Part shown: positions 1-45,006 of the stretch, piece after piece | Numbering within the stretch: the stretch's first letter is position 1 | How the letters are laid out: each line of letters opens with the position of its first letter | Virus genome (UHGV): UHGV-0282798 | DNA length: 45,006 nt | Reading direction: 5' to 3' (one strand) | Source of the DNA: a virus | Notes under the pieces: model-generated | The model's input: the letters and a program-made list of their open reading frames with translations, nothing else | What the model was told of the DNA's origin: nothing | Databases searched by the model: none | Program-made: the position numbers and the translations under genes

Positions 1-919
1 CATTAGTGTGGCCCGAGCGACCAGAGGCGTCAGGGTAAACCGTAACCGTATGGCCCGGATACCGTATCCTGACATTATTGACGAAGTCGTCGGTATTATG
101 GCTGACAAACTCATCAACAACCGTCGGGTTGCCGTCTTCAATAACGCTCACGGTGGCGCAACAGCCGCCGATGTTAAAGTCCAACCCTATGTGCAGAGCG
201 TCTCCATTCTGCAAGGTGCGGGTGGAGTCATGTGTGCTTCGTTTGAAATAGTGATACACCTTATTGGCCGTCAAACTGACAAATTCACCGTTGATATACA
301 TATCGGCCAAAGCCGCGTCGTAGTTCCTTCGTATCTGCTCGACGTAGCCTTCAGGTAAATATGGGTTCGACAATGTAGATGCCTTAATCAGTTCCGTAGA
401 ACTGTCGGCGTTAGTAACCCAATAGTCATACACAAATCCGGAGAATCCCTGGTCAGGTGTAGTCACGGCGGCAATACTGTTCCCGCCCCTACACGGTTGT
501 CGGGTACGCTCTGAAATCTTACGCCACACCAGAGACGCCTGTTCTTTAGTAAGCACGTCAAGTTCGTCTGCGACAGAATGCGCCACCTCAAAAGCGATTA
601 GACGGTTCGGGTTGTCGTATGACCTGAAAAACATAGTACCGTAACCTTTAACATGGATACTGTATTCTGATTTGTTGAGGTCATACTTAAGCCCCATCAT
701 ATTCAGGTCATCAACCACACCGGGAATGGCACGCAGCTTCAACAGGTCATACGTGGGCATGGTGTACAGGGTGTTTATCCCTCGCTCTCGCAACATGAGA
801 TACAGGAGACGCATCGTGGCCGCGCGGGACTTGCCTGCCCCCAGTCCAGCGACAATAGCTGGATGTGTCTTTGTACTGAATACAAAGTCCTGTTGGGGTT
901 CTGTTAATGGGATATCCAT
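1..919 (-). CDS. terL: Terminase large subunit, N-terminal ~306 codons (continues in frame at 44690-45006)
   Basis: Own minus-strand translation from ATG 917-919: MDIPLTEPQQDFVFSTKTHPAIVAGLGAGKS (Walker A) ... AFEVAHSVADELD (Walker B-like). Open to position 1, so absent from ORF track. ATG overlaps terS stop. Confidence 0.8.
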   Translation of the reverse strand, partial: MDIPLTEPQQDFVFSTKTHPAIVAGLGAGKSRAATMRLLYLMLRERGINTLYTMPTYDLLKLRAIPGVVDDLNMMGLKYDLNKSEYSIHVKGYGTMFFRSYDNPNRLIAFEVAHSVADELDVLTKEQASLVWRKISERTRQPCRGGNSIAAVTTPDQGFSGFVYDYWVTNADSSTELIKASTLSNPYLPEGYVEQIRRNYDAALADMYINGEFVSLTANKVYHYFKRSTHDSTRTLQNGDALHIGLDFNIGGCCATVSVIEDGNPTVVDEFVSHNTDDFVNNVRIRYPGHTVTVYPDASGRSGHTN

Positions 920-1470
920 TACTCGCCCCCCGGTTTAACAGCCTTAACGAAACGAATCTCGATAGGTTCAGAACCCTCGCCAGTCGATTCTTCTTTCTTA
1001 TTCAGCCCCAGCTTCGCAGCGGCAAACGTAGCAGAGATGCCAGCAGCCCCTGTCTCAGTGAAATACGCCTCTTCCAGCGCCTGTGCTGTTTCATAGGCTT
1101 CTGCAAACGCGGGTATCTCACGCAGCCACAGCTTGATAATCGGGATAGTGACGCCGATGTGTAGGGCAAAGCGGGCCAGTGACGGGGGTTTATCCTGAAT
1201 AAGCGGGCGTTCGTCACCCTTAGACGTAGGTACGAGTTCCCACGACGTGCGGTCGAAGAACTCGATTAACTCGTCGCAATAGTCCGGGTCCCACAACGCG
1301 GCGGAATTACGGGATGATTGATAAAGGCTCTGTTTACCGCGCGGTCGTTTACGGCGACGGTTTGCGCTAACAGCTTCTTCATGTGCAGCTTGCACCACCT
1401 CTGGCGATGGCTGCTTAAGTTTCAGCTTCATAGAATCCCCTTGCATATGCGTCTGACCATCAGAGCGCAC
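919..1470 (-). CDS. terS: Terminase small subunit (putative)
   Basis: 183-aa ORF immediately upstream of and overlapping terL; basic N-terminus, region DPDYCDELIEFF...AKLGLNKK resembles small-terminase DNA-binding proteins. Start may be internal (MKLKLKQ). Confidence 0.5.
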   Translation of the reverse strand: MRSDGQTHMQGDSMKLKLKQPSPEVVQAAHEEAVSANRRRKRPRGKQSLYQSSRNSAALWDPDYCDELIEFFDRTSWELVPTSKGDERPLIQDKPPSLARFALHIGVTIPIIKLWLREIPAFAEAYETAQALEEAYFTETGAAGISATFAAAKLGLNKKEESTGEGSEPIEIRFVKAVKPGGE

Positions 1471-3248: not shown

Positions 3249-3403
3249 TCTTTACGCTCTCCCCACATGCGATTGAGATACTTGTTCTTGTCCGGCCCAG
3301 GGAAACTGTTACGTTTCATCAGTTCCTCGCGTGTAGGGAACGGGGTGTTACTTACTTTACTGCCTACTCGTAATGGTTGGCTTACTTGACCTTGTTCGCT
3401 CAT
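3245..3403 (-). CDS. Small ORF (52 aa)
   Basis: Own translation MSEQGQVSQPLRVGSKVSNTPFPTREELMKRNSFPGPDKNKYLNRMWGERKE; RBS AGGAGAGAAGAA before ATG 3401-3403; ATGA coupling with next gene. Confidence 0.3.
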   Translation of the reverse strand: MSEQGQVSQPLRVGSKVSNTPFPTREELMKRNSFPGPDKNKYLNRMWGERKE

Positions 3404-3549
3404 TTCTTCTCTCCTGCGTAAGCTGCTTTCAGTGTTTGCATCGCAGCGAACCAGAACGCGTCAGCGGGGATACTGCTACTAAGGTTACTAACGGCGATAC
3501 GTGCCATCAGTTGTGCGTCTTTGAATGCTTCGATATCTGTGATTTTCAT
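3400..3549 (-). CDS. Small ORF (49 aa)
   Basis: Own translation MKITDIEAFKDAQLMARIAVSNLSSSIPADAFWFAAMQTLKAAYAGEKK; RBS GAGTAGAGAAG; first gene after promoter at 3589-3617. Confidence 0.3.
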   Translation of the reverse strand: MKITDIEAFKDAQLMARIAVSNLSSSIPADAFWFAAMQTLKAAYAGEKK

Positions 3550-3588
3550 CTTCTCTACTCCGTTCTCGTTCTCGTTGTCGATGAAGTA

Positions 3589-3617
3589 AATATAATAGGG
3601 TCTACGGTAATAGTCAA
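3589..3617 (-). promoter_or_regulatory. Sigma70-type promoter (minus strand): TTGACT-17-TATATT
   Basis: Reverse complement of 3589-3617 reads TTGACT attaccgtagaccctat TATATT; sits between tandem terminators and the next minus-strand gene. Confidence 0.35.
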
Positions 3618-3639
3618 CTAGTCATTACAGAAAATAGAT

Positions 3640-3671
3640 AAAAAAAATCCCGGCTGGGTCAGGGCCGGGAT
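3640..3671 (-). terminator. Intrinsic terminator (minus strand)
   Basis: Stem ATCCCGGC (3647-3654) / GCCGGGAT (3664-3671), 9-nt loop; on the minus strand the hairpin is followed by an 8-U run (plus-strand A-run 3640-3647). Downstream of the endolysin gene. Confidence 0.6.
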
Positions 3672-3740
3672 AAAACTGGAGAGTAGAGGGATGAAGCAGG
3701 AGGTGATTTAAGTATCGTCGGATTAGTCTTAGGTGTCAAT

Positions 3741-3774
3741 TGGTAAAATAAAACCCGGATTCGCGGTCCGGGTT
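3741..3774 (-). terminator. Intrinsic terminator (minus strand)
   Basis: Stem AACCCGGA (3752-3759) / TCCGGGTT (3767-3774), loop ttcgcgg; minus-strand RNA continues UUUUAUUUUACC. First of two tandem terminators after the lysis operon. Confidence 0.55.
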
Positions 3775-3902
3775 TCGGTCATAAGCCCCTGAACCCTACG
3801 CAGTCTCCACCGCTTGGGCTGCTGCTTCAGGTTTACCAGGGCTTAGTATGCAAGCACAAGCAGCGTGGAAGTAATTTTACTAAATGCCTTCGTATTCGTC
3901 CA

Positions 3903-4439
3903 TCATTTAACGGCTCTCCCAATAGCCTCAGCCTCTTGCCACGGTTTACCGTCGAACAGCGCCAGACGCCCGGCTGCACGGCGACGCAGGCCGAGTAATG
4001 GTTTGCCGTTCTGGTTGATGAACAGCGCCAGCTTGGCACGCAGTGTTGCAATATCACCTGAGCGCAGCGCCTTACCCGTGCCAGTAGTAGCCGCAATCAC
4101 ACCAGCACCCGCGTTGTAGACCAGGTCACACACAGCGTCGAACTGCGCCTGTGTCAGTGAATGGTGCGCCACCGAATCCACCGCAGCTACGGCCTTAGCC
4201 ATATCGCGATTAAGTAACAGGAGGCCTTGTCCCGGTGTGATGGTCTTGCCTGGAGTCACGTCCGGCCCGTAGTGGCCGTAGCCAATAGTAAGGTACTTCT
4301 CATTCGGCGTAGCACGATACGCAGTTCCGCGGAATCCCTCGAACGCAGCACAGAAATGCAATCCATTATCTGAAATATTTCGAGACACGCTTATGTCCTC
4401 CGTATGACAGCCACGCCTGACGAATCTGGCGCAGCGCAA
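3903..4439 (-). CDS. Endolysin, phage lysozyme (GH24) family
   Basis: EGFRGTAYRATPNEKYLTIGYGH and LTQAQFDAVCDLVYNAGAG match T4-lysozyme-type motifs. Likely true start is GTG at 4386-4388 preceded by GGAGG (ACGGAGGACATAAGC GTG), giving about 162 aa. Confidence 0.8.
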   Translation of the reverse strand: MRCARFVRRGCHTEDISVSRNISDNGLHFCAAFEGFRGTAYRATPNEKYLTIGYGHYGPDVTPGKTITPGQGLLLLNRDMAKAVAAVDSVAHHSLTQAQFDAVCDLVYNAGAGVIAATTGTGKALRSGDIATLRAKLALFINQNGKPLLGLRRRAAGRLALFDGKPWQEAEAIGRAVK

Positions 4440-4638
4440 CTAATGTGATTAATGTCTCAGGCAGCGTAGGTGACATGCTGCCCTGTAACAGGTGGATGCA
4501 TCCGGCGGCGCAGACGATAGCAGTCAGGATATAGAGCACCCGGCCAAATAATCCGTCGTCCACGCTGGGGTGATACACATTAAACAGCGATGCGCCCCCG
4601 ATGGCCAGCATACCGCCGAACCAGAATAACTCATTCAT
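4366..4638 (-). CDS. Holin or antiholin-like membrane protein (2 TM)
   Basis: Hydrophobic segments FWFGGMLAIGGASLF and LYILTAIVCAAGCIHLL; immediately upstream of endolysin. Confidence 0.5.
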   Translation of the reverse strand: MNELFWFGGMLAIGGASLFNVYHPSVDDGLFGRVLYILTAIVCAAGCIHLLQGSMSPTLPETLITLVALRQIRQAWLSYGGHKRVSKYFR

Positions 4639-4939
4639 CCGGGCCTCCTCGACGTGAGATGTATTCCCCGGCGACGATACCGGAGAGGCGGGAATAGATG
4701 GGCATCCAGAGAATGGCGATGATGAATCCGAGGCCAGCTATCTCTCGCTCCCCAGTAATGCCAAACCATTGCGCGGCAAGAGGTGCACCAAACACGGCAC
4801 AGGTGAAGCCGGTTGCAATAAAGCAGAAGCCGTCAATGGGGCCAGAAATAACGGACTTATGTTGTCGTAGTCCGATTACCCCTCCGGCTAGCGCGGCAGC
4901 GAGAAGCCAGCCCGTCACTGTTTCAGTAAATTTATCCAA
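4631..4939 (-). CDS. Holin-like membrane protein (3 predicted TM)
   Basis: Three hydrophobic segments with a charged C-terminal tail RRGGPDE; position in lysis cassette. Confidence 0.55.
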   Translation of the reverse strand: MDKFTETVTGWLLAAALAGGVIGLRQHKSVISGPIDGFCFIATGFTCAVFGAPLAAQWFGITGEREIAGLGFIIAILWMPIYSRLSGIVAGEYISRRGGPDE

Positions 4940-8726: not shown

Positions 8727-8899
8727 GAGAATAGTTACGTTGCCGTTGTGATTCTTTCGTTTCTTAAAAGAGTACGCAACGCAGGGGGTGGGCATTAGCC
8801 CACCCCAGCGGAGTGAAGTACTCTCTACCTTGCTCACGGCAACTATAGAAACTTTTAATTATCAGTGACTTGGGTATTTAGGCGGGATTAACAATAGAC

Positions 8900-9000
8900 T
8901 ATGGCCCTTCCGAATGCGGGCAGCGACACTACACTCAGTGCTAACGCACCGCTCCGTTCTCCTGCCGCACCGCGGTCGCTTGTTCATACTTCACAAGCTC
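8900..9000 (-). ncRNA. Conserved structured 5-prime leader RNA or small RNA (putative), copy 1
   Basis: About 100 nt downstream of the repeat promoter are conserved between copies with compensatory changes in two hairpins; the only ORF through it is not conserved in copy 2. Confidence 0.35.
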
Positions 9001-9006
9001 AGGTGG

Positions 9007-9035
9007 AGCTTAGCATATTTTTAGTGAAAAGTCAA
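9007..9035 (-). promoter_or_regulatory. Sigma70 promoter inside repeat copy 1 (minus strand): TTGACT-17-TGcTAAGCT
   Basis: Reverse complement: -35 TTGACT (9030-9035), 17-bp spacer, extended -10 TGC TAAGCT (9007-9015); identical in copy 2. Confidence 0.5.
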
Positions 9036-37493: not shown

Positions 37494-38006
37494 TTAGCCC
37501 CGGTACACGTTAAAAGAGAAGCCATTGTTAAGACCACCACACAGTAACGGGCGCAAGGCGTCGTCGGCGGCAGTAATAGCGGTAGTAGCCCCACTGCTGC
37601 CGTTGTTGAAGTATGTCACGGTAACTGCACCTTCCACGCGCTCAGTCTGCACGGAGCGACCGTCCGAGTTAGCACGCACTTCTGTGCCCGCCCCATACGT
37701 GGCGGACGCGATTACCTGCGCAAGAATTACCTGTTTCGGAATGGCATTGTTAGCTACCGGGAATCCGTTTAACGTTACCCCCGTGCGAGGGTACGCCAGA
37801 GGCTGTTCGGCGGATACGCGGCGACCGCACATCTGCGGTTCTGCAAGCCCTACGTAAGTAGCGCCGTTGCGCAGAGCTACTTCGGCGGCGGTATCGTCTT
37901 CCGGTAGCTCAAGGCCATAATTAGCCGCTAACGCGCGGGCGTCAACCAGACTAATGTAACTGTCGGCGTTAGGTACTATCGACCCATCTTCCACGATTAG
38001 CGGCAT
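37494..38006 (-). CDS. Head-tail connector / head completion protein (putative)
   Basis: N-terminus MPLIVEDGSIVPNADSYISLVDA is typical of connector-type proteins; position downstream of capsid genes. Confidence 0.4.
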   Translation of the reverse strand: MPLIVEDGSIVPNADSYISLVDARALAANYGLELPEDDTAAEVALRNGATYVGLAEPQMCGRRVSAEQPLAYPRTGVTLNGFPVANNAIPKQVILAQVIASATYGAGTEVRANSDGRSVQTERVEGAVTVTYFNNGSSGATTAITAADDALRPLLCGGLNNGFSFNVYRG

Positions 38007-38009
38007 AAA

Positions 38010-38189
38010 TTATTCCTCTGACTTACGGCGACGACGCTTAGTACCACCGCCGTTGTTGTGCGCTTCTTCGTTGTCCGGTTGGGTTGCAACCAGTTCATCA
38101 GCCTCTACCACACCGCGAACGGGCATCACCTGACCGTCAACAACGTCAACGTGGGTGTACTTTTCGCGGATTACATAATTATCTGCCAT
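38010..38189 (-). CDS. Small ORF (59 aa) with basic tail
   Basis: Own translation MADNYVIREKYTHVDVVDGQVMPVRGVVEADELVATQPDNEEAHNNGGGTKRRRRKSEE; fills an otherwise empty gap; below track cutoff. Confidence 0.3.
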   Translation of the reverse strand: MADNYVIREKYTHVDVVDGQVMPVRGVVEADELVATQPDNEEAHNNGGGTKRRRRKSEE

Positions 38190-38588: not shown

Positions 38589-38888
38589 TTAGCTTACAGT
38601 TCCTGCGTTTTTAAGCGCGGTTAACAGGTTCGCTACGGTAGTGCGCAGCGCGGTAACATCGGTTCGGAGTTTATTGTACTCCGCTACAAGCGCATCAAAC
38701 TCTGCCTTAGTCGGGTCTGCGGCGGCCTGAACTCCGGCAGCGGCAGTAATGGCCGCGGGTGCAGCTACAGTAGCTGACTTTTTAACCCCACCAACTACGC
38801 TGGTAGTAGCAGGCGTCACTGGGATATCTAGGTCGCTAAAGTCAACGTTCTGAAGGCTGCGCGGTAAGCCTTTTCCGGTCTTAGCCAT
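38589..38888 (-). CDS. Ala-rich small structural protein
   Basis: 99 aa immediately after the major capsid gene; positional call. Confidence 0.4.
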   Translation of the reverse strand: MAKTGKGLPRSLQNVDFSDLDIPVTPATTSVVGGVKKSATVAAPAAITAAAGVQAAADPTKAEFDALVAEYNKLRTDVTALRTTVANLLTALKNAGTVS

Positions 38889-38947
38889 AATTTACCTCTT
38901 AGTAAATGAAAAGAGGGACCGAAGTCCCTCTCGATTATAGCTTAACC

Positions 38948-39997
38948 TTAAGCACCGACACCAGTTACCAGGAAGGCAATCGGTACATGCTTACGCTCAA
39001 CAACGCGGTTCCAGTTGGAGGCGTTCGCCAGGTCCTGCCAGGAAGCAGAGCGTGCGACAGTCTCGGTGCCGTTGCCGGTGATTACCGCGCTGGTGAAGCT
39101 GTAGCCCAGTGGGTGCAGCAACCAGGTCTTACGGGTCCACAGGGTTTCAACGCCGCCGCCGTTACCGCGAGACGCTTCACGCTCGTATTCCAGCGGGTTT
39201 GACGGATTACCTTCACCGTAACCGATAGCGCCGTTACCGAAGATGGTGGAGATGAACTTACGGCTAGGACCAGTACCGACTACGGTCATGCTGTCGTCAA
39301 CAATCACGCGGTAGCCCTGGTAGGTGGCGAACATGGTGTTGTTGTCAGCGTCTTTGATGAAGTCAATAAGCTGCTGCTTACGGGCCTGCGCATAAACGAA
39401 ACTGTGCATCGCGATAGCACCCAGTACTTCACCACCGTTACCCATCAGAGCATCGCCCATGGTCTGGGTAGCGTCGATGAATGCGCCCGCGTCGAAGCCC
39501 AGAGTCGCGGACACGTCTACTACCATGTCGTTCTGCTCGTGGTAAGCATCGGTCGCGGCAACGTTGTCGTTGTACAGGCCGAGCGCAGTGGCAATCAGAC
39601 GGCGTTGTGCCTGACGCTGCCAGAAGTTATCCAGACGGGACGCTACAGATTGCAGCGGGTTCTGGCTGGTCAGTTCGACAGTCAGGTCAGCCTGGCCAAA
39701 ACCTTCGTTCAGGTACGCAACGCGCGCCATCATCTCACCGGTCTGCACGTTACGCGGGGTTGCGATGTCCTGGTATACGTCGTTCGAGTAGTTTGGCTCG
39801 ATAGAGGTATCAATCGCTTTCCAGAAAGGAATATTAGCGACGTTGGACGGGCCACGAGCAATCTCGGCAGCGTACGGGGTCGGGGTAAGGATACCGGACT
39901 GGAAGAACGCGGTTTTTTCTACCGGGTCTTCTGTCATGTAAGACGCCAGGACCGGGATGTTGCCAGTTACGATATCGCCGATAGTGGTAATTGCCAT
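38948..39997 (-). CDS. Major capsid protein (putative)
   Basis: 349 aa directly downstream of scaffold; strong RBS GAGGAAATAATA before the ATG; positional call. Confidence 0.6.
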   Translation of the reverse strand: MAITTIGDIVTGNIPVLASYMTEDPVEKTAFFQSGILTPTPYAAEIARGPSNVANIPFWKAIDTSIEPNYSNDVYQDIATPRNVQTGEMMARVAYLNEGFGQADLTVELTSQNPLQSVASRLDNFWQRQAQRRLIATALGLYNDNVAATDAYHEQNDMVVDVSATLGFDAGAFIDATQTMGDALMGNGGEVLGAIAMHSFVYAQARKQQLIDFIKDADNNTMFATYQGYRVIVDDSMTVVGTGPSRKFISTIFGNGAIGYGEGNPSNPLEYEREASRGNGGGVETLWTRKTWLLHPLGYSFTSAVITGNGTETVARSASWQDLANASNWNRVVERKHVPIAFLVTGVGA

Positions 39998-39999
39998 TA

Positions 40000-40755
40000 T
40001 TATTTCCTCAGGGCTTTAAGTTGCCGTTCAAATTCGGCAGGGTTCGATTTATACAGAGCTAAACGCTCCGCTTCACTCATGTCTTTAAACGCTGGTGCGG
40101 CCCCGCCGCCTTTGCTACCGGAAGCCCCGCCGCCGGAAGCTGCATTTGCTTTAATCAAATGCGAAAACGCTTTGTGTTCACGCAGGTATTTGCGGAACTG
40201 TTCCGGGTCAGTCGTGATTACGTTGCCGTCTGCTCCGACAAACTTAGTAACCACGTCATCGCCTTCAAACTCGGTCTTAACGAACGGAGCCAGGATGTCC
40301 ACTGCTTCCGGGGTGATAAAGTCACCCGCGAAAGAGCCTAACACCGCTTTACGTTCGCTGCCGAGGATACGCTCCGCCATTCTGGAGATGCGGCCGTCTT
40401 TCTCGGCTAACACCGGGTCATACTGGCTACGAATCGTCTTTTCAAACTCGTCCATCTTACCAGCGGCTTTTAACGCCTCCTGGTGTGCGCGCTGCCGTTC
40501 TTCTTCGGCCTCTTTTGCTTTGCGAGCGGCTTCTTTCTTCTCCGCCAGCAATGCTTCCTGATTAGCCTTAAGCCCGGCTACTTCTTTCTCAATCAGCGCC
40601 TGAACTTCTTCAGCGGTGAACATTTTCGGCGCATCACCGCCGCCAGATTTATCTTCTGTCCCAGCTTCTTCCTGGAACGGATAACGTAAAAAACGATTCA
40701 TAGTCAGTATGTCCCCTGGACGTTGGAATCCGGGCCACCCGGATTTACATGTCAA
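40000..40755 (-). CDS. Capsid scaffolding protein (putative)
   Basis: Charged helical protein (EEVQALIEKEVAGLKANQEALLAEKKEAARKAKEAEEERQRAHQEALKAAGK) immediately upstream of the capsid gene; likely start ATG 40699-40701 (track start is TTG). Confidence 0.55.
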   Translation of the reverse strand: MTCKSGWPGFQRPGDILTMNRFLRYPFQEEAGTEDKSGGGDAPKMFTAEEVQALIEKEVAGLKANQEALLAEKKEAARKAKEAEEERQRAHQEALKAAGKMDEFEKTIRSQYDPVLAEKDGRISRMAERILGSERKAVLGSFAGDFITPEAVDILAPFVKTEFEGDDVVTKFVGADGNVITTDPEQFRKYLREHKAFSHLIKANAASGGGASGSKGGGAAPAFKDMSEAERLALYKSNPAEFERQLKALRK

Positions 40756-40783
40756 GAATAAATTATTCCAACATGCAAGGCAA

Positions 40784-41047
40784 CTATTCCAGAATATTCC
40801 TCACGTAATCCTGCAACATGAACACTTTCAGCCTCAGTTGCCGTACACATTCAGCGTTCTGAACGTCGATAGCCAAATCCTCGTCAGCATCACTACTTGG
40901 CGGTGCCAGCTTGCACGGCGGCTGCATCATTGTCGTATCCGGGGATGGAATTGGCGTTTGCGACGGCGCGGGACTTGAGTTGCACGCGCTCAGGGTCAAA
41001 AGTGCACACGCTGCGGCTAGGCGTTTTAATGTACTTAACGACTTCAC
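40784..41047 (-). CDS. o-spanin (Rz1-like lipoprotein)
   Basis: Signal peptide with lipobox LTLSAC, Pro-rich mature part; +1-frame gene overlapping the 3-prime half of the Rz-like gene. Confidence 0.6.
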   Translation of the reverse strand: MKSLSTLKRLAAACALLTLSACNSSPAPSQTPIPSPDTTMMQPPCKLAPPSSDADEDLAIDVQNAECVRQLRLKVFMLQDYVRNILE

Positions 41048-41279
41048 GGGTAATCACCTCTGATTTCGTCTTGCCTTCGTTGTCGGCGGCTGCGGCCTTT
41101 GACTCATCCTGCTGCTGCCGTTGTGTCTTCTTAGCTAACTCAGCCTTCGCTTTTTGGGTTTGTTCGGTAACGAGGTCAAGCCGTCCCGCATCCCAGCCGC
41201 GGTTGTATTGGTACCCCCCGTACAGCCATACCGTAAGCAAGCCTGCCGCCGTTAGTGTTGCTGTGTTGCTTAGATTCAT
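40893..41279 (-). CDS. i-spanin (Rz-like)
   Basis: N-terminal TM (TATLTAAGLLTVWLYGGY) then a charged helical periplasmic region; overlaps the Rz1-like ORF. Confidence 0.55.
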   Translation of the reverse strand: MNLSNTATLTAAGLLTVWLYGGYQYNRGWDAGRLDLVTEQTQKAKAELAKKTQRQQQDESKAAAADNEGKTKSEVITREVVKYIKTPSRSVCTFDPERVQLKSRAVANANSIPGYDNDAAAVQAGTAK

Positions 41280-41397
41280 GTTTCCCCTTTCTCGATAAGT
41301 AAAGCCCCGCCTTAAAGCGGGGCGCTAGTCCTTATCATTTAAACATAGAAACGGCGTAATCTCAGTAAACCAGTTACTCTTTACACAAGCAAAAGAG

Positions 41398-41532
41398 TAT
41401 GGCCCTTCCGAACGCGTCAGCGTAACTACACTCAGGACTTACGTCCCGCTCCGTTACCTGCCCGCGCCGCGGTCGCTCGTTCATACTTCACAAGCTCAGG
41501 TGGAGCTTATCATATTTTTAGTGAAAAGTCAA
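41398..41532. repeat. Repeat copy 2 of the ~135-bp promoter-plus-leader element
   Basis: Aligns with 8900-9035; lies between the terminator at 41591-41617 and the Rz start at 41279. Confidence 0.85.
41504..41532 (-). promoter_or_regulatory. Sigma70 promoter inside repeat copy 2 (minus strand): TTGACT-17-TGaTAAGCT
   Basis: Reverse complement: -35 41527-41532, -10 41504-41509 with upstream TG. Confidence 0.5.
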
Positions 41533-41590
41533 CTATTCGAATAGTTTATTCCAACATTTACAATTGATTGGAATAACTGGAATAATTACG

Positions 41591-41617
41591 AGCCATAAAA
41601 AGCCCCTTTCGGGGCTT
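41591..41617 (-). terminator. Intrinsic terminator (mainly minus strand)
   Basis: Stem AAGCCCC (41600-41606) / GGGGCTT (41611-41617), loop tttc; on the minus strand it is followed by UUUUAUGG. Confidence 0.55.
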
Positions 41618-41621
41618 CAGT

Positions 41622-42083
41622 TTATTCTGGCTTAGTCACCTTCGCCGCTTTGCTTACACCCTCTACACCATCGGCATCGGTAACTTTAACGAAGTATTCA
41701 CCGACCACATTAACCGTCAGAGACAGAGCTTCTTCTGGGGCGTTGACTACTTCCTTACCGTCTTTGTACCAGGTCAGCACATACGGCGCTTTGCCCGCCT
41801 TAACTTCGACAGTGATAGTTGCGCTGCCGTCTGCCAGTTCCGCATCCTGCGGTTGCACAGAGAAATACACGTCGCCAGCGTCCGCCAGATACGGAATCTC
41901 ATAAAGCATACCCGCCGCGGGCAGCGCGATGCCTGTTTTATCCGCAAACGGCATATCGTCTACCGGTGTACCGAGTACACTTTCGTCTTCAATAAACACC
42001 ACGTTCTCACCAGAGCCGGATACACGGGCGTACTGGACTACGCGGCGCGCGGGTACATCGGTTACTTTGAAAAAGCCCATCAT
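41622..42083 (-). CDS. Ig-like domain protein
   Basis: GKAPYVLTWYKDGKEV ... GEYFVKVTD looks like an I-set/Big-type domain; position after the Mu-F-like gene. Confidence 0.45.
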   Translation of the reverse strand: MMGFFKVTDVPARRVVQYARVSGSGENVVFIEDESVLGTPVDDMPFADKTGIALPAAGMLYEIPYLADAGDVYFSVQPQDAELADGSATITVEVKAGKAPYVLTWYKDGKEVVNAPEEALSLTVNVVGEYFVKVTDADGVEGVSKAAKVTKPE

Positions 42084-43159
42084 TATTCCCCTTTCAGATA
42101 ATCAGCAACACGTTTATCGAGTTCCGCCATCTGCTTAAGCGTGAGCGGATTCCCGAAACCATCTACAGATATTACGCGAAACTCTTCCGGCGATATACCG
42201 CTGTTACGGAAAATCTTACCGCGAACAGGGCCGAGTGCTTCATCCACGAACCATGCCGGTTGTTGTTTAAGGAACTCGTAGTAAGTAGTGTCCGCGCTTA
42301 CCTGAGTACCCCCGTCGGCACCCTTAGCTGCACGTTTTGCACCTTTATCCAAGAAGTCGAACTCAGAGCTGATTACTGGCGCAGTGGTACTCCGGCAATT
42401 CGGATGTGCTGGCGGCATCGGCCCCTTACCGATTTCCCACGTCATTCCGTCTCTGGCCCTACAAATCGTACTGGTACGGCTGTCCAGCGTCGACACCCAC
42501 TCGTACTTCTCGATGATGTCGTCGTTCTGGCGGTACGTCTCGTTACGGGCTTCGTTGGATATGTGAGACAGCGCGGTGCGGATTACCGTAGCCGCGTTGC
42601 GCTCAGAGATGTCGGCCAGGCCACCAGCGCCAACAACATTCTTAACAATCTGCCGTGTTGTCTGGCCTTGTACAAAGCCCATCTTAACGCCGGTTACCAG
42701 GCGCGCGACTTCTGTTTCACCCCAGCCTGACATCAGCTTAGTGAAATCAACAGGCTTGTCGCTTAACGATAGCGGCTGAAACTCGGCAGCGGCCCACACC
42801 TGTTCAGCAGTGGGTGTAACAAATTCCGCGTCTACGTTAGCCGTCAGCGTTTTTACATTCCACTCCGCTTCATACGCCGCCAGTTCTTTAAGGTCTTCTG
42901 TCAGCTTTGTTTGCCAGTCGCCTGTAAGTCCGCTCAGTGCTTCTTCCAGGTCGCGTAACAATTTATTCAGTCGCGCAGTGCTGCGACCGTCGTCGCCGAA
43001 TAACAGCACCTGCCGTTTGATTTCGTCTCGCATTTCCTGAAGAAACGGCGCAAGGTCTTTCACTTCACCGGATGCGGTGCGTTGCAGCCATATCTGGTGG
43101 CTGATTAGGGATGTAAGTAAGCTCATAGTTAAATCCTGTGGCGCTAAAGTTAATAGCAT
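42083..43159 (-). CDS. Head morphogenesis protein (Mu F / SPP1 gp7-like, putative)
   Basis: PAHPNCRSTTAPV resembles the conserved motif of this family; position after portal. Confidence 0.55.
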   Translation of the reverse strand: MLLTLAPQDLTMSLLTSLISHQIWLQRTASGEVKDLAPFLQEMRDEIKRQVLLFGDDGRSTARLNKLLRDLEEALSGLTGDWQTKLTEDLKELAAYEAEWNVKTLTANVDAEFVTPTAEQVWAAAEFQPLSLSDKPVDFTKLMSGWGETEVARLVTGVKMGFVQGQTTRQIVKNVVGAGGLADISERNAATVIRTALSHISNEARNETYRQNDDIIEKYEWVSTLDSRTSTICRARDGMTWEIGKGPMPPAHPNCRSTTAPVISSEFDFLDKGAKRAAKGADGGTQVSADTTYYEFLKQQPAWFVDEALGPVRGKIFRNSGISPEEFRVISVDGFGNPLTLKQMAELDKRVADYLKGE

Positions 43160-43195
43160 ACTATAAGAAAGCCCCTTTCGGGGCTATATGCGAAC

Positions 43196-44677
43196 TTACT
43201 GCTGGGCGGTGTCTTGTTGCTGCGCCGACTGCGGAATCTCCCCCGCTACCGGAGTAGCAGCACCCAACGGCAGCGGCGCATCCTCAATAGCGTTCTGAAT
43301 GTCCTCGTCGGTCCAGTCGGTTACCCCCGCCTTACGCAACGCAGCATAATAAGCGGTAGCTGGTAGTAGGCCTGCGTTAATATCCACCATCCACTGTGCA
43401 CGGTCCTGAGCGGTCATCGGCTGCAGGAAGAACTCCATATTCAGCTTGAACTCAATCTCTGTGCCTTCACGCAGCCCTAGCATCGCGGCTACCCAGCGCA
43501 ACGCATCGGTATACGCCATGCTTACATTACGCGCGATTGTCGCCATAACAGACGTATCAGCGCCACGTTGCAGGCGGGCCGATTCTGCAGTGATTTGCTG
43601 CGTCGGGGTAATAAGCTGCGCACCAATCTGAATGGCCTGATTCTCTTTATCCAGCATGTTCTGCTTGGCGAGATTGTTCTCTCCGGCCTGAACCAGAAAC
43701 GCATTACCGCCGTAGCCAATGTTGTGGCCTGAACGCGACCCCATGCGCACGCCGTGAGGGTTGGCTTCGGTCCACTGTTCCATGCTCATATTCTCACCAG
43801 GGGCGATGAACAGAGTGGGCTGGCCCACGACGAAGCTGGATTCCTCATTATCGGCGCTGTTGCGGAAATGCCCGATATTAAGCTCAGCTAACGGTAGCAA
43901 AGGTGCGTCGTCAATGGTGGCATCGTTGTTGCTCGCCCCGATGAACGTGAACGGGATTTTGCCGCGTAACTGTCCGCCAAGTTCCGGGAAGATTTCTTTT
44001 ACTTCACCCTGAGCGCCACCTTCGGCATCGAAGCGGTAAATACGCTGGCGGTAGCGCCCGTCAATCAAATCGAGAACGCGGTATTGCTCACCGAACTTTG
44101 TTTCGAACTCCGCGCCCGGTTCCGAGTATTCCCACACCTCGCGCAACACGACCATCGTCACCCGGTTAACAGAACCGATGCGTGTCAGTCGCCAGTTGAT
44201 GATGTTCTCTGCGGTGTAGAATGCGATGACCGGGTTTAATAATCCCGCGTTCTGTTCGGCTGCCGTTGCCGCAGCAGTCTCCGGCGCGTCCACCAGCAAC
44301 CCACCACGGCCTACCGAGTCAATCTCCATTAGCGTATCCTGCGCGTGCTGCCACAGTCCGACACCGGAACCGTCGGCATTGCGTAACAGGTACTCAAGCT
44401 CAGGCGGGATAATCTGCTCAGGGTCTTTGCGCATCACTGACCCCACCATCCCAGCCAGGGTACGTTTAGTGAAGTTGTAGCAGATAGCGCCGTTCTCGTA
44501 TTCTTCCTGTCGCTGTGCCGCGTAGGTCGGGTCAGGCTCGTTCTTCCCGACGTTGCGCAGGTAGCGGATAAGGTCGCCCTCCAGCGCGTGGCGTACCTTC
44601 TGCCATTTATCGAAGTGGTGCAGCCATTCCCGGTGTTTTGTCTTAACACCCTGATTCTGACCGTTCATAGTTAACAT
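43196..44677 (-). CDS. Portal protein (putative)
   Basis: 493 aa directly downstream of terL and upstream of the Mu-F-like gene; positional call. Confidence 0.6.
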   Translation of the reverse strand: MLTMNGQNQGVKTKHREWLHHFDKWQKVRHALEGDLIRYLRNVGKNEPDPTYAAQRQEEYENGAICYNFTKRTLAGMVGSVMRKDPEQIIPPELEYLLRNADGSGVGLWQHAQDTLMEIDSVGRGGLLVDAPETAAATAAEQNAGLLNPVIAFYTAENIINWRLTRIGSVNRVTMVVLREVWEYSEPGAEFETKFGEQYRVLDLIDGRYRQRIYRFDAEGGAQGEVKEIFPELGGQLRGKIPFTFIGASNNDATIDDAPLLPLAELNIGHFRNSADNEESSFVVGQPTLFIAPGENMSMEQWTEANPHGVRMGSRSGHNIGYGGNAFLVQAGENNLAKQNMLDKENQAIQIGAQLITPTQQITAESARLQRGADTSVMATIARNVSMAYTDALRWVAAMLGLREGTEIEFKLNMEFFLQPMTAQDRAQWMVDINAGLLPATAYYAALRKAGVTDWTDEDIQNAIEDAPLPLGAATPVAGEIPQSAQQQDTAQQ

Positions 44678-44689
44678 TTAATAATCCTC

Positions 44690-45006
44690 TTAAAGTGCGA
44701 AACGAACTGGGGTATTGATAACAGGGCGGACAACAGGGAACAACCTATGCATACAATAGCCTAAACTGTCATTCCAGTCGTCGATAGCTGGGTGAGTTTT
44801 AAACTTCTCCGGTTCACCATTATCGTTATACCCCTGCGTCTCTAGTGACTGCGTTAATTTAGGGCATTTTGAAGTGTTAATCCTCAAACGGCTATGTGAC
44901 AAAAGCGCGTTAACCGCGTTTATTCTGTCTTTAACGAATGGGTTCTTACTTGGAGCGTTAACACGTAAGCCGGCCTTTTCGATGATACCTATGTCGGATA
45001 ATGATG
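44690..45006 (-). CDS. terL: Terminase large subunit, C-terminal ~105 codons (continuation of 1-919)
   Basis: Minus-strand frame is open from 45006 to the stop at 44690-44692 (...SLSDIGIIEKAGLRVNAPSKNPFVKDRINAVN...). Position 1 plus 45006-45005 form one codon (GCA), so the junction is in frame. Confidence 0.75.
   Translation of the reverse strand, partial: SLSDIGIIEKAGLRVNAPSKNPFVKDRINAVNALLSHSRLRINTSKCPKLTQSLETQGYNDNGEPEKFKTHPAIDDWNDSLGYCMHRLFPVVRPVINTPVRFAL

What the first reader, a model, noticed from the sequence alone, without database searches (positions are those of the whole stretch)
40784..41279. Spanin pair embedded in the head-gene cluster, 36 kb from holin and endolysin
An Rz-like i-spanin (N-terminal TM, helical periplasmic domain) and an overlapping +1-frame Rz1-like lipoprotein (lipobox LTLSAC, Pro-rich) lie between the Ig-like head gene and the scaffold gene. 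The holin-like genes and endolysin are at 3903-4939. Lysis genes are usually clustered, so this split placement is atypical and means the spanins are co-transcribed with capsid genes.
Basis: partly seen in the sequence, partly recalled or inferred. Interest (0 to 1): 0.45.

Follow-up and report, generated by a model that had tools for sequence, protein, structure and literature searches.

The report
Known spanin pair among head genes
The two overlapping genes are the phage's outer-membrane-breaking "spanin" pair, sitting where they sit in every phage of this subfamily (Guernseyvirinae) and already annotated and published as such, so the finding is correct but ordinary.

Summary
On the minus strand, a 128-aa protein with an N-terminal membrane helix (41279..40893) overlaps by 155 nt, in the +1 frame, an 87-aa lipoprotein (41047..40784; lipobox LSAC, Cys22, proline-rich). 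Both match PHROG spanin families. They lie between the Ig-like decoration gene and the scaffold gene.

The window is a complete, circularly permuted Kagunavirus genome. The same gene pair at the same place is annotated as spanins in K1G, K1ind1, Shashou and others. It belongs to the published "Jersey" spanin family, which has the same 155-bp overlap and the same Cys45 and Cys67. Its separation from holin and endolysin has been noted in print.

"36 kb" comes from cutting the circle. Along the direction of transcription the pair lies 7.6 kb downstream of the endolysin.

"Co-transcribed with capsid genes" is only half right. A terminator follows the upstream head gene. Then come a conserved sigma-70-type promoter and a roughly 220-nt structured leader, directly before the i-spanin. 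No terminator separates the pair from scaffold and capsid genes downstream.

By-product: the leader RNA shows covariation, and this genome holds a second copy at the head of an early operon. Novelty: already known. Interest is low.

The parts
40893..41279 (-). i-spanin (Rz-like), 128 aa. It has an N-terminal transmembrane helix (about residues 6-24), a long periplasmic helix, and an invariant Cys92.
   Evidence: ORF. Matches phrog_2536 at E=9.6e-50, with weaker hits to two other Rz-like PHROGs. AlphaFold2 helix 3-80. 278 homologues, some named i-spanin (Schulenburg, Shashou). Cys92 is invariant across 22 sequences.
40784..41047 (-). o-spanin (Rz1-like) outer-membrane lipoprotein precursor, 87 aa, GTG start, +1 frame relative to Rz. 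Lipobox L-S-A-C with Cys22. The mature protein is 66 aa, with a Pro-rich N-terminal part and Cys45 and Cys67.
   Evidence: Matches phrog_5672 at 4.6e-30 and phrog_1267 at 2.3e-20. The sub-threshold hit to NCBIfam P2_Rz1 (14.8 bits, cut-off 27) does not count as membership. Cys45 and Cys67 are the positions reported constant in the Jersey o-spanin family (PMC6139136).
40893..41047 (-). 155-nt dual-coding overlap. It encodes the Rz C-terminal tail and the Rz1 signal peptide plus Pro-rich linker.
   Evidence: Coordinates. The same 155-bp overlap is reported for phage Jersey (PMC6139136) and was found in 30 related loci.
41594..41617 (-). Intrinsic terminator directly after the Hoc-like gene: AAGCCCC-GAAA-GGGGCUU followed by UUUUAU.
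   Evidence: Sequence. Fold -14.3 kcal/mol, z = -3.4. A terminator is annotated at the same place in Shashou. Jerseyvirus K25 has a different stem with a U tract at the same place.
41504..41532 (-). Sigma-70-type promoter ('P_A'): TTGACT, 17-nt spacer, TGaTAAGCT (-35 at 41532-41527, TG at 41512-41511, -10 at 41509-41504).
   Evidence: Sequence. The hexamers and the TG are almost invariant while the spacer varies across 40 unique copies (one copy has CGACT). The same sequence is listed as predicted host promoter HP1 upstream of the spanin of fBC-Eco01 (PMC9825357 Suppl. Table S2). An identical core promoter heads an early operon at 9035-9007.
41396..41503 (-). Conserved structured core of the 5' leader RNA, an elongated stem-loop of about 107 nt. 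The annotated 36-aa ORF inside it (41484..41374) is not conserved.
   Evidence: RNAalifold gives 18 pairs, 7 with compensatory changes. 97.5% of cells are paired against at most 39% when partners are slid; covariation score 0.313 against at most 0.058. G-U pairs fit this strand. Covariance-model hit of 126 bits. The ORF's ATG is lost in L038 and in Jerseyvirus.
41304..41323 (-). GC-rich hairpin in the 5' UTR, about 20 nt before the Rz start, followed by UUUACUUAUC. It may be a partial terminator or attenuator, or a stabilising hairpin.
   Evidence: fold -17.2 kcal/mol. Compensatory stem variants GCCCAGC/GCTGGGC and GCCCTGC/GCAGGGC occur in relatives. Jerseyvirus has a different stem with a GUAA loop and no U tract.
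40702..40783 (-). Rz1-scaffold spacer. It holds the palindrome GGAATAATTTATTC (40769-40756), TTGACA (40755-40750) and a hairpin (40745-40727). It belongs to the scaffold gene's upstream control region, not to the spanins.
   Evidence: The spacer is conserved across the subfamily with compensatory hairpin changes, and stays next to the scaffold gene where the spanins lie 300-1100 nt further upstream.
3903..4939 (-). The rest of the lysis system: two holin-family genes (4939..4631, 4638..4366) and a canonical phage lysozyme endolysin (4439..3903) with no N-terminal membrane segment.
   Evidence: phrog_2359 and phrog_2508 'holin'; Pfam Phage_lysozyme at 8.8e-27. Translation.

Best explanation
The two genes are the phage's only two-component spanin. 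They belong to the 'Jersey' spanin family of Guernseyvirinae siphophages, with the overlapped architecture.

Inferred mechanism, from the established lambda Rz/Rz1 model: the i-spanin sits in the inner membrane by its N-terminal helix and reaches into the periplasm as a helical stalk. The o-spanin is lipidated at Cys22, sorted to the outer membrane, and binds the i-spanin by its C-terminal domain. The complexes accumulate harmlessly while held in the peptidoglycan mesh. Once the holin (4939..4366) lets the endolysin (4439..3903) degrade the wall, the complexes fuse inner and outer membranes and complete lysis. Because activity is gated by wall degradation, the spanin genes do not need to be timed together with holin and endolysin. 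This explains why they can sit elsewhere.

In this subfamily their fixed position is just upstream of the scaffold gene. In this genome they most likely form the start of a transcription unit of their own: a terminator after the Hoc-like gene, a sigma-70-type promoter at 41532-41504, a leader of about 220 nt, then Rz/Rz1. Transcripts probably continue into the scaffold and major capsid genes, as far as the terminator at 38932-38911.

Shown here: sequence features, homology, synteny, conservation of the promoter and hairpins, and covariation in the leader. Inferred: lysis function, localisation, promoter activity and transcript extent.
For: Identity as spanins:
- PHROG spanin families at E=1e-50, 5e-30 and 2e-20.
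- N-terminal TMD plus a long helix.
- Lipobox with Cys22, Asn at +2, Pro-rich mature N-terminus.
- +1-frame overlap of 155 nt.
- Periplasmic Cys92 in Rz is invariant. Cys45 and Cys67 in Rz1 are the positions reported constant in this family.
- No other credible lipoprotein or spanin candidate in the genome.

Already known:
- The orthologous genes are annotated 'putative spanin', 'Rz-like spanin', or i-spanin and o-spanin in K1ind1, K1G, Shashou and many other records.
- K1G, K1H, K1ind1-3 and SETP3 are listed in the Jersey i- and o-spanin families (PMC6139136).
- The separation from holin and endolysin is stated for Schulenburg, Golestan and fBC-Eco01.

Synteny:
- An Rz homologue lies upstream of the scaffold gene on the same strand in 57 of 58 IMG/VR loci.
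- A lipoprotein ORF follows it in 47 loci by pattern, and in the other 10 with an L-N-G-C variant.
- Serratia phage Tsm2 has the same order.

Transcription unit:
- Terminator after the Hoc-like gene.
- Promoter hexamers conserved over a variable spacer.
- The same promoter was predicted independently in fBC-Eco01.
- The identical core promoter sits at a divergent junction where a promoter must exist.
- No terminator-like site on the minus strand between 41304 and 38932.
- Insertions of an opposite-strand gene are tolerated between the terminator and the promoter in relatives.
Against: - I found no experimental test of this spanin family (complementation, localisation or lipidation).
- Neither protein reaches any Pfam model at E<=0.01, including the lambda Rz and Rz1 families. 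The NCBIfam P2 LysC hit is below its cut-off. Family assignment therefore rests on PHROGs and on the published clustering.
- SignalP and LipoP could not be run; only a PROSITE-like pattern was used.
- The AlphaFold2 model is of low confidence overall (mean pLDDT 59), and its C-terminal 45 residues are unstructured.
- The promoter's -10 hexamer is weak (TAAGCT, 3 of 6). The tool's own scan did not report it.
- The hairpin at 41323-41304 could stop most transcripts before Rz.
- The one RNA-seq paper on a Kagunavirus does not resolve these genes.
Confidence: 0.88

Rival explanations
1. One reading: the pair has no promoter of its own and is simply one more cistron of a long head-gene transcript, made by read-through from the portal, MuF-like and Hoc-like genes.
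For: All these genes lie on the same strand and are closely packed. The consensus promoter scan reported no minus-strand site in 38800-45006. If late transcription in this phage resists terminators, the terminator after the Hoc-like gene would not matter.
Against: A 342-nt non-coding gap separates the Hoc-like gene from Rz. It begins with a canonical terminator. It also contains TTGACT-17-TGnTAAGCT, whose hexamers are conserved while the spacer drifts, and which is identical to the promoter heading an early operon. The same promoter was predicted independently in a relative. Relatives tolerate an opposite-strand gene inserted at this junction.
Confidence: 0.25
2. The pair is not a lysis device. 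It is a membrane protein plus lipoprotein with another role, such as superinfection exclusion (like the Cor or Llp lipoproteins) or help with DNA entry, which would fit its place in the structural module.
For: No member of this family has been tested in the papers I could search. Neither protein matches the lambda Rz/Rz1 Pfam families. Its position among virion genes is unusual for lysis genes.
Against: The full set of spanin hallmarks is present: a type-II inner-membrane protein with a helical periplasmic stalk, an overlapping small Pro-rich outer-membrane lipoprotein, and conserved periplasmic cysteines. The genome has no other spanin candidate, although it encodes holins and an endolysin and infects a Gram-negative host. 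The pair keeps its two-gene structure through overlapped and separated variants across the subfamily, as reported for spanin families (PMC6139136).
Confidence: 0.04
3. The +1-frame ORF is a chance open frame inside and beyond Rz, and only Rz is expressed.
For: A lipobox-like pattern occurs in about 1% of all start/ORF combinations in this genome. Several GenBank records annotate only one spanin gene.
Against: The ORF extends 109 nt beyond the Rz stop. Its C-terminal part (DADEDLA.DV.NAEC..QLRLKVF.LQ.Y.RNILE) is strongly conserved between Kagunavirus and Jerseyvirus. It matches two PHROG families at E<=2e-20. It has a GAGGTGA Shine-Dalgarno sequence 6 nt before its GTG. In distant relatives the same protein is encoded as a separate downstream gene.
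Confidence: 0.02

Closest known systems
'Jersey' i-spanin and o-spanin families of Kongari et al. 2018 (PMC6139136); genes ORF5/ORF6 of Escherichia phages K1G and K1ind1; CPT_Shashou_008/009
   Same: The genes are orthologous. The 2.1-kb region is about 91% identical in DNA, and the i-spanin is 71-93% identical in protein. The position is the same, between the Hoc-like and scaffold genes. The 155-bp overlap is the same, and so are Cys45 and Cys67 in the o-spanin.
   Different: Only the first 45 or so residues of the i-spanin (the TMD and juxtamembrane part) differ. They are of a rarer variant, shared among the hits aligned only with two metagenomic proteins (P0001, P0002). Variability of the TMD is itself described for this family.
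Phage lambda Rz/Rz1 (prototype two-component spanin)
   Same: The topology, the division of labour and the presumed mechanism are the same: an inner-membrane protein and an outer-membrane lipoprotein span the periplasm, carry periplasmic cysteines, and act after holin and endolysin. The o-spanin gene is in the +1 frame of the i-spanin gene.
   Different: In lambda, Rz1 is fully embedded in Rz and the pair directly follows S and R in one late operon. Here the o-spanin gene runs past the i-spanin stop (overlapped class), and the pair lies 7.6 kb downstream of the endolysin. No detectable sequence similarity to the lambda Pfam families.
Phage T4 PseT.3/PseT.2
   Same: [quoted passage not shown] This shows that linkage is not required for function.
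   Different: The T4 genes are of the separated architecture and lie in an early or middle region, not in the head module. There is no sequence relationship.
Phage T7 gp18.5/gp18.7 (from my own knowledge of the T7 map; not checked here)
   Same: The spanin pair is nested among morphogenesis and packaging genes, between terminase genes 18 and 19. It lies far from the amidase/endolysin gene 3.5.
   Different: The T7 pair is embedded and is lambda-Rz-like in sequence. It follows the holin gene 17.5 closely and is transcribed by T7 RNA polymerase.

Membership tests
Two-component spanin (functional class; Summer 2007, Kongari 2018) | The i-spanin is a type-II inner-membrane protein with a single N-terminal TMD. 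| tested here: met
   Residues 2-26 are uncharged and include the hydrophobic maximum. AlphaFold2 helix 3-80, with pLDDT 81-88 over residues 1-20. TMHMM found a single TMD in the Shashou orthologue (annotation note).
Two-component spanin (functional class; Summer 2007, Kongari 2018) | The i-spanin periplasmic domain is largely alpha-helical (a coiled-coil stalk). | tested here: inconclusive
   The helix continues to residue 80, but residues 68-128 have pLDDT below 50 and are modelled as coil. The model was a monomer built from a shallow alignment. The published prediction for the family is two helices with a beta-containing linker.
Two-component spanin (functional class; Summer 2007, Kongari 2018) | The o-spanin is a small outer-membrane lipoprotein with a signal peptide, a lipobox Cys, and no Asp at +2. 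| tested here: met
   PROSITE-type pattern match AACALLTLSAC, Cys22, K2/K8/R9 in the n-region, +2 = Asn, mature length 66 aa. SignalP and LipoP were not available.
Two-component spanin (functional class; Summer 2007, Kongari 2018) | The two genes are adjacent: embedded, overlapped or separated. | tested here: met
   155-nt overlap in the +1 frame, with the o-spanin extending 109 nt past the Rz stop. This is the overlapped class.
Two-component spanin (functional class; Summer 2007, Kongari 2018) | Periplasmic cysteines are available for intermolecular disulfides. | tested here: met
   Rz Cys92 is invariant in 22 sequences. Rz1 has Cys45 and Cys67.
Two-component spanin (functional class; Summer 2007, Kongari 2018) | The pair is required for outer-membrane disruption at lysis and complements lambda Rz/Rz1. 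| not testable with these tools
   Needs genetics. I found no such test for this family in the searched literature.
'Jersey' spanin family (PMC6139136) | Sequence homology to the i- and o-spanins of Jersey, SETP3 and K1G. | tested here: met
   The region is about 91% identical in DNA to K1G and K1ind1, where these genes are annotated as spanins. It is 73% identical to SETP3. The Jerseyvirus K25 Rz is 64% identical in protein.
'Jersey' spanin family (PMC6139136) | 155-bp overlap, with constant Cys45 and Cys67 in the o-spanin. | tested here: met
Lambda Rz (Pfam Phage_lysis) and lambda Rz1 Pfam families | A match to the family profile above the gathering score. | tested here: not met
   No Pfam family at E<=0.01 for either protein.
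P2 LysC (NCBIfam NF038368 P2_Rz1) | A match above the curated cut-off of 27 bits. | tested here: not met
   14.8 bits, E=0.024. A faint resemblance only.

The most novel reading that the evidence does not exclude
The part that appears undescribed is not the spanins but what precedes them. A covarying, structured leader RNA of about 107 nt lies behind a conserved promoter, upstream of Rz, in both Kagunavirus and Jerseyvirus. In this genome and a subset of its relatives a second copy heads an early operon (9035-8898), and there are signs of gene conversion between the two copies. The most novel reading that the evidence leaves open is that this is a cis-acting regulatory RNA. It could be a put- or nut-like element that makes RNA polymerase resistant to terminators, or a translational or stability switch. 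On that reading it sets the level and timing of the spanin-scaffold-capsid transcript and couples it to early transcription.
Probability: 0.2. Interest if true: 0.5.

Novelty: already known. Interest (0 to 1): 0.12.

Why it matters
For annotation, it confirms that this genome has a complete lysis set (two holins, an endolysin, a two-component spanin). It also shows that gene callers must keep the overlapping GTG-start ORF.

For biology, it is one more documented case showing that spanin genes need not be linked to holin and endolysin. This fits the model that spanins are gated by wall degradation rather than by their own timing. That point is already established from T4 and from earlier descriptions of this same phage group, so the finding changes nothing.

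The only lead worth following is the conserved promoter-leader module upstream of the pair.

Tried and rejected
- Pfam and NCBIfam gave no valid family for either protein.
- Rfam at E<=1 found nothing in 40500-42200 apart from a chance snoRNA hit.
- ARAGORN found no tRNA in the window. The 'tRNA-Ser' annotated at this junction in some Jerseyvirus records overlaps the 3' end of the Hoc-like gene on the opposite strand, and I take it to be a false call.
- The 36-aa ORF in the leader (annotated as hypothetical in Shashou and fBC-Eco01) was rejected as coding. Its ATG is lost in L038 and in Jerseyvirus, and substitutions are compensatory in RNA stems.
- The apparent match of the intergenic region to an 'unrelated' phage (Ec1-ASingh) turned out to be the early-region copy in a partial Kagunavirus-like genome.
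- I first took the 12-mer ATGTTGGAATAA flanking the cassette as a trace of cassette insertion. I rejected this. The downstream copy belongs to a control region that stays with the scaffold gene across the subfamily, even where the spanins lie further away.
- The hairpin at 41323-41304 was considered as a conserved terminator. In Jerseyvirus it lacks a U tract, so its conserved role is more likely structural than termination.
- The covariance model found no leader homologue in Tsm2 or in the more distant loci L088-L104.
- The leader of fBC-Eco01's early region is not homologous to the Rz-upstream leaders of distant clades. Only a promoter core of about 35 nt is shared.
- The RNA-seq paper on Kagunavirus K1B4 and its supplements give no usable values for these genes.
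- The Jerseyvirinae proposal paper (PMID 25663216) is not held.

Full report
WHAT IS THERE

On the minus strand, 41279..40893 encodes a 128-aa protein. In the +1 frame (232 nt downstream of its start), 41047..40784 encodes an 87-aa protein from a GTG start. The two share 155 nt, and the second runs 109 nt past the stop of the first.

The first protein has an uncharged, hydrophobic N-terminus (residues 2-26). AlphaFold2 models residues 3-80 as one continuous helix; the C-terminal 45 or so residues are of low confidence.

The second protein has a positively charged n-region, a hydrophobic core, and the lipobox L-S-A-C with Cys22. Asn follows at +2. Nine of the first 30 mature residues are prolines, and there are two further cysteines at positions 45 and 67.

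A lipobox-like pattern alone is not rare in this genome: 12 of 1187 start/ORF combinations match it. None of the other matches has a plausible signal peptide next to a type-II membrane protein.

Both proteins match PHROG families named 'Rz-like spanin' (E = 9.6e-50; 4.6e-30 and 2.3e-20). Neither matches any Pfam family. The o-spanin only faintly resembles P2 LysC, below the NCBIfam cut-off.

Upstream lies a Hoc-like Ig-domain decoration gene (42083..41622). Downstream lie the scaffold gene (probable ATG at 40701) and the major capsid gene (39997..38948). Two holin-family genes and a canonical phage lysozyme are at 4939..3903.

WHERE THE SEQUENCE COMES FROM, AND WHY '36 KB' MISLEADS

The 2.1-kb region is about 91-92% identical to Kagunavirus phages (Guernseyvirinae) such as K1G, K1ind1-2, ST20 and XY1, and about 73% identical to Jerseyvirus phages such as SETP3.

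A 416-codon ORF that aligns end to end with a large terminase subunit runs from window position 934 down to 1 and continues from 45006 to 44693. The window is therefore a complete, circularly permuted genome opened inside the terminase gene.

Along the transcribed strand the order is: holin, holin, endolysin, small genes, a putative small terminase (by position only), large terminase, portal, MuF-like, Hoc-like, spanins, scaffold, capsid. The endolysin stop and the Rz start are 7,629 nt apart. The 36 kb is the long way round the circle.

ALREADY KNOWN

The orthologous gene pair at the same position is annotated in several records:
- 'putative spanin (x2)' or 'Rz-like spanin (x2)' in K1ind1, K1G and K1ind2;
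- 'i-spanin' and 'o-spanin (contains N-terminal lipobox)' in Shashou;
- similar names in many other records.

Kongari et al. 2018 list Jersey, SETP3, K1G, K1H, K1ind1-3 and others as the 'Jersey' i-spanin and o-spanin families of the overlapped class. They give the overlap in Jersey as 155 bp and note constant Cys45 and Cys67 in the o-spanin (PMC6139136). All three details are found here.

The split from the rest of the lysis genes has been stated in print:
- Golestan: spanins are ORF7/8, against holins and endolysin at ORF66-68 (PMC7203180).

Unlinked spanin genes are also known from T4 (PMC6139136). From my own knowledge of the T7 map, the T7 pair lies between the two terminase genes.

CONSERVATION OF THE PLACEMENT

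I used the scaffold protein to pull 58 loci from IMG/VR, with scaffold identity of 55-99%. In 57 of them an Rz homologue lies upstream of the scaffold gene on the same strand. A lipoprotein ORF overlaps or follows it in every one of the 57: 47 by pattern and 10 with an L-N-G-C lipobox variant. The overlaps are 155 nt in 30 loci, other lengths from 35 to 173 nt in nine, and 4-14 nt in the clade that Kongari et al. class as 'separated'.

Serratia phage Tsm2 has the same gene order. The placement is therefore a stable trait of the subfamily, not a peculiarity of this genome.

HOW THE PAIR IS PROBABLY EXPRESSED

The 342-nt gap between the Hoc-like gene and Rz is not empty. Reading the minus strand, it contains the following, in order:

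(i) A canonical intrinsic terminator lies right after the Hoc-like stop codon (stem 41617-41600, then UUUUAU; -14.3 kcal/mol). Shashou has one annotated at the same place, and Jerseyvirus K25 has a different stem there.

(ii) Next come TTATTCC/GGAATAA repeats, which are also conserved in Jerseyvirus and in a third clade.

(iii) A promoter follows: TTGACT-17 nt-TGaTAAGCT (41532-41504). Across 40 unique copies the two hexamers and the TG are almost invariant while the spacer varies, which is the pattern expected of a working sigma-70 promoter. The tool's scan missed it because the -10 hexamer scores only 3 of 6. The fBC-Eco01 authors' software predicted exactly this sequence as host promoter HP1, upstream of their spanin gene (Suppl. 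Table S2 of PMC9825357).

(iv) A transcribed leader of about 220 nt comes next.

(v) A GC-rich hairpin at 41323-41304 (-17.2 kcal/mol) is followed by UUUACUUAUC. Compensatory stem variants occur in relatives. In Jerseyvirus a different stem with no U tract takes its place. Its conserved role is therefore structural, and termination is at most partial.

(vi) Last come a Shine-Dalgarno sequence and the Rz ATG.

Downstream, no terminator-like site lies on this strand until 38932-38911, after the capsid gene. The 82-nt Rz1-scaffold spacer holds a palindrome (GGAATAATTTATTC), a TTGACA and a hairpin. These are conserved throughout the subfamily with compensatory changes. They stay with the scaffold gene even where the spanins lie 300-1100 nt further upstream. 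That spacer is therefore the scaffold gene's own control region.

My reading (inference, not measurement) is this. The spanins are insulated from the upstream head genes and start a unit of their own, and transcripts probably continue into scaffold and capsid. The scaffold-proximal element may add transcription for the much more abundant capsid proteins.

THE LEADER RNA (A BY-PRODUCT)

The core of the leader (41503-41396) recurs at 9006-8898 with about 88% identity. There it lies behind an identical core promoter (9035-9007), at the divergent junction that heads a minus-strand operon of small early-region genes.

An alignment of 18 distinct copies was made from Kagunavirus spanin-side copies, Kagunavirus early-side copies and Jerseyvirus spanin-side copies. 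It folds into one elongated stem-loop of 18 pairs, 7 of which show compensatory double changes. The controls are as follows:
- 97.5% of cells are paired, against 20-39% when the partners are slid by 1-3 columns.
- The covariation score is 0.313, against 0.009-0.058 for the slid versions.
- None of 500 shuffles reaches the observed values for cells paired, cells with a change on both sides, or covariation score.

One caveat applies: the structure was derived from these same sequences, and the sequences are related to one another. G-U pairs fit the minus strand.

The 36-aa ORF annotated here in some records is not conserved. Rfam has no match.

The covariance model finds two copies in this window and in Shashou. 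It finds one copy, upstream of Rz only, in Jerseyvirus K25, and none in more distant members. BLAST shows that only a subset of Kagunavirus genomes has the second copy. fBC-Eco01 has a different promoter and leader at the early junction. One spanin-side copy (L010/L057) carries an early-side-type internal segment, which suggests gene conversion between the copies.

The spanin-side copy therefore looks ancestral, and the early-side copy looks like a later replacement of an early promoter module. This in turn argues that the module is a functional promoter usable by the host polymerase. What the RNA does is unknown. Processive antitermination, transcript stabilisation and translational control are all open.

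VERDICT

The remaining doubt is the lack of any experiment on this family.

The distance is 7.6 kb on the circle rather than 36 kb. The placement is the norm for Guernseyvirinae, is already annotated and published, and has precedents elsewhere. Co-transcription with the upstream head genes is unlikely, while co-transcription with scaffold and capsid is plausible.

As a finding it is already known and of low interest (0.12). The conserved promoter-leader module in front of the pair is the only element I could not find described.

Noticed in passing
window 41396-41532 (-) and 8898-9035 (-): A promoter (TTGACT-17-TGnTAAGCT) plus a structured leader RNA of about 107 nt is present twice in the genome: upstream of the spanins, and at the head of an early minus-strand operon. 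Covariation supports the fold (7 of 18 pairs have compensatory changes). There is no Rfam match. Jerseyvirus has only the spanin-side copy, and only a subset of Kagunavirus genomes has the second copy.
   Followed up: yes
window 40727-40783 (-): The upstream region of the scaffold gene holds the GGAATAATTTATTC palindrome, TTGACA (with no recognisable -10) and a hairpin. It is conserved across the whole subfamily with compensatory hairpin changes. A near-identical half (ATGTTGGAATAA...TTGAC) lies just upstream of the spanin promoter. This looks like the binding site of an unidentified regulator of these promoters.
   Followed up: partly
window 7189, 8696, 12349, 15095, 18871 (+) and 32150 (-): The palindrome GAATAG-N5-CTATT is repeated inside promoter-like sequences (for example TTGACAcgtGAATAGTTCGCTATTATAGTT). 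It is probably an operator for a phage repressor (a Cro-like gene is annotated in Shashou). The fBC-Eco01 paper reports the same motif seven times but attributes it to a 'phage RNA polymerase'; no RNA polymerase gene is annotated in the Kagunavirus Shashou record.
   Followed up: partly
window 1-934 joined to 44693-45006 (-): The window is a whole genome opened inside the large terminase gene. That terminase is only 39% identical to the one of K1ind1, although the neighbouring head genes are about 91% identical in DNA. This points to a mosaic exchange of the packaging module.
   Followed up: partly
window 41145-41279 (-): The first 45 or so residues of the i-spanin (TMD and juxtamembrane part) are of a rare variant, shared among the hits aligned only with two metagenomic proteins. 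The leader upstream and the rest of the protein are of the common Kagunavirus type. This indicates a very local recombination patch.
   Followed up: partly
L052 1025-1546 (opposite strand); Shashou (L004) 3357-3878: A 173-aa sliding-clamp-like gene on the opposite strand is inserted between the Hoc-like terminator and the spanin promoter in some relatives, and at the portal/MuF junction in Shashou. It behaves like a mobile 'moron' that lands at transcription-unit boundaries. It is absent from this window at that site.
   Followed up: partly
window 40701-40755 (-): The scaffold ORF can be extended to a TTG at 40755, as annotated in K1ind1 (756 nt). That extension would cover the conserved hairpin and TTGACA. 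The ATG at 40701, which has a Shine-Dalgarno sequence and is the start annotated in Shashou and phage wast, is the likely start.
   Followed up: no
L002 3051-3128 (Salmonella phage wast) and similar Jerseyvirus records: A 'tRNA-Ser' is annotated on the opposite strand, overlapping the 3' end of the Hoc-like gene and its terminator. ARAGORN finds no tRNA anywhere in this window, so the annotation is probably a false positive.
   Followed up: partly
window 38003-38016 (-): There is a third, one-mismatch copy of the GGAATAANNTATTC palindrome (GGAATAATTTATGC), at the start of the head-tail adaptor gene.
   Followed up: no
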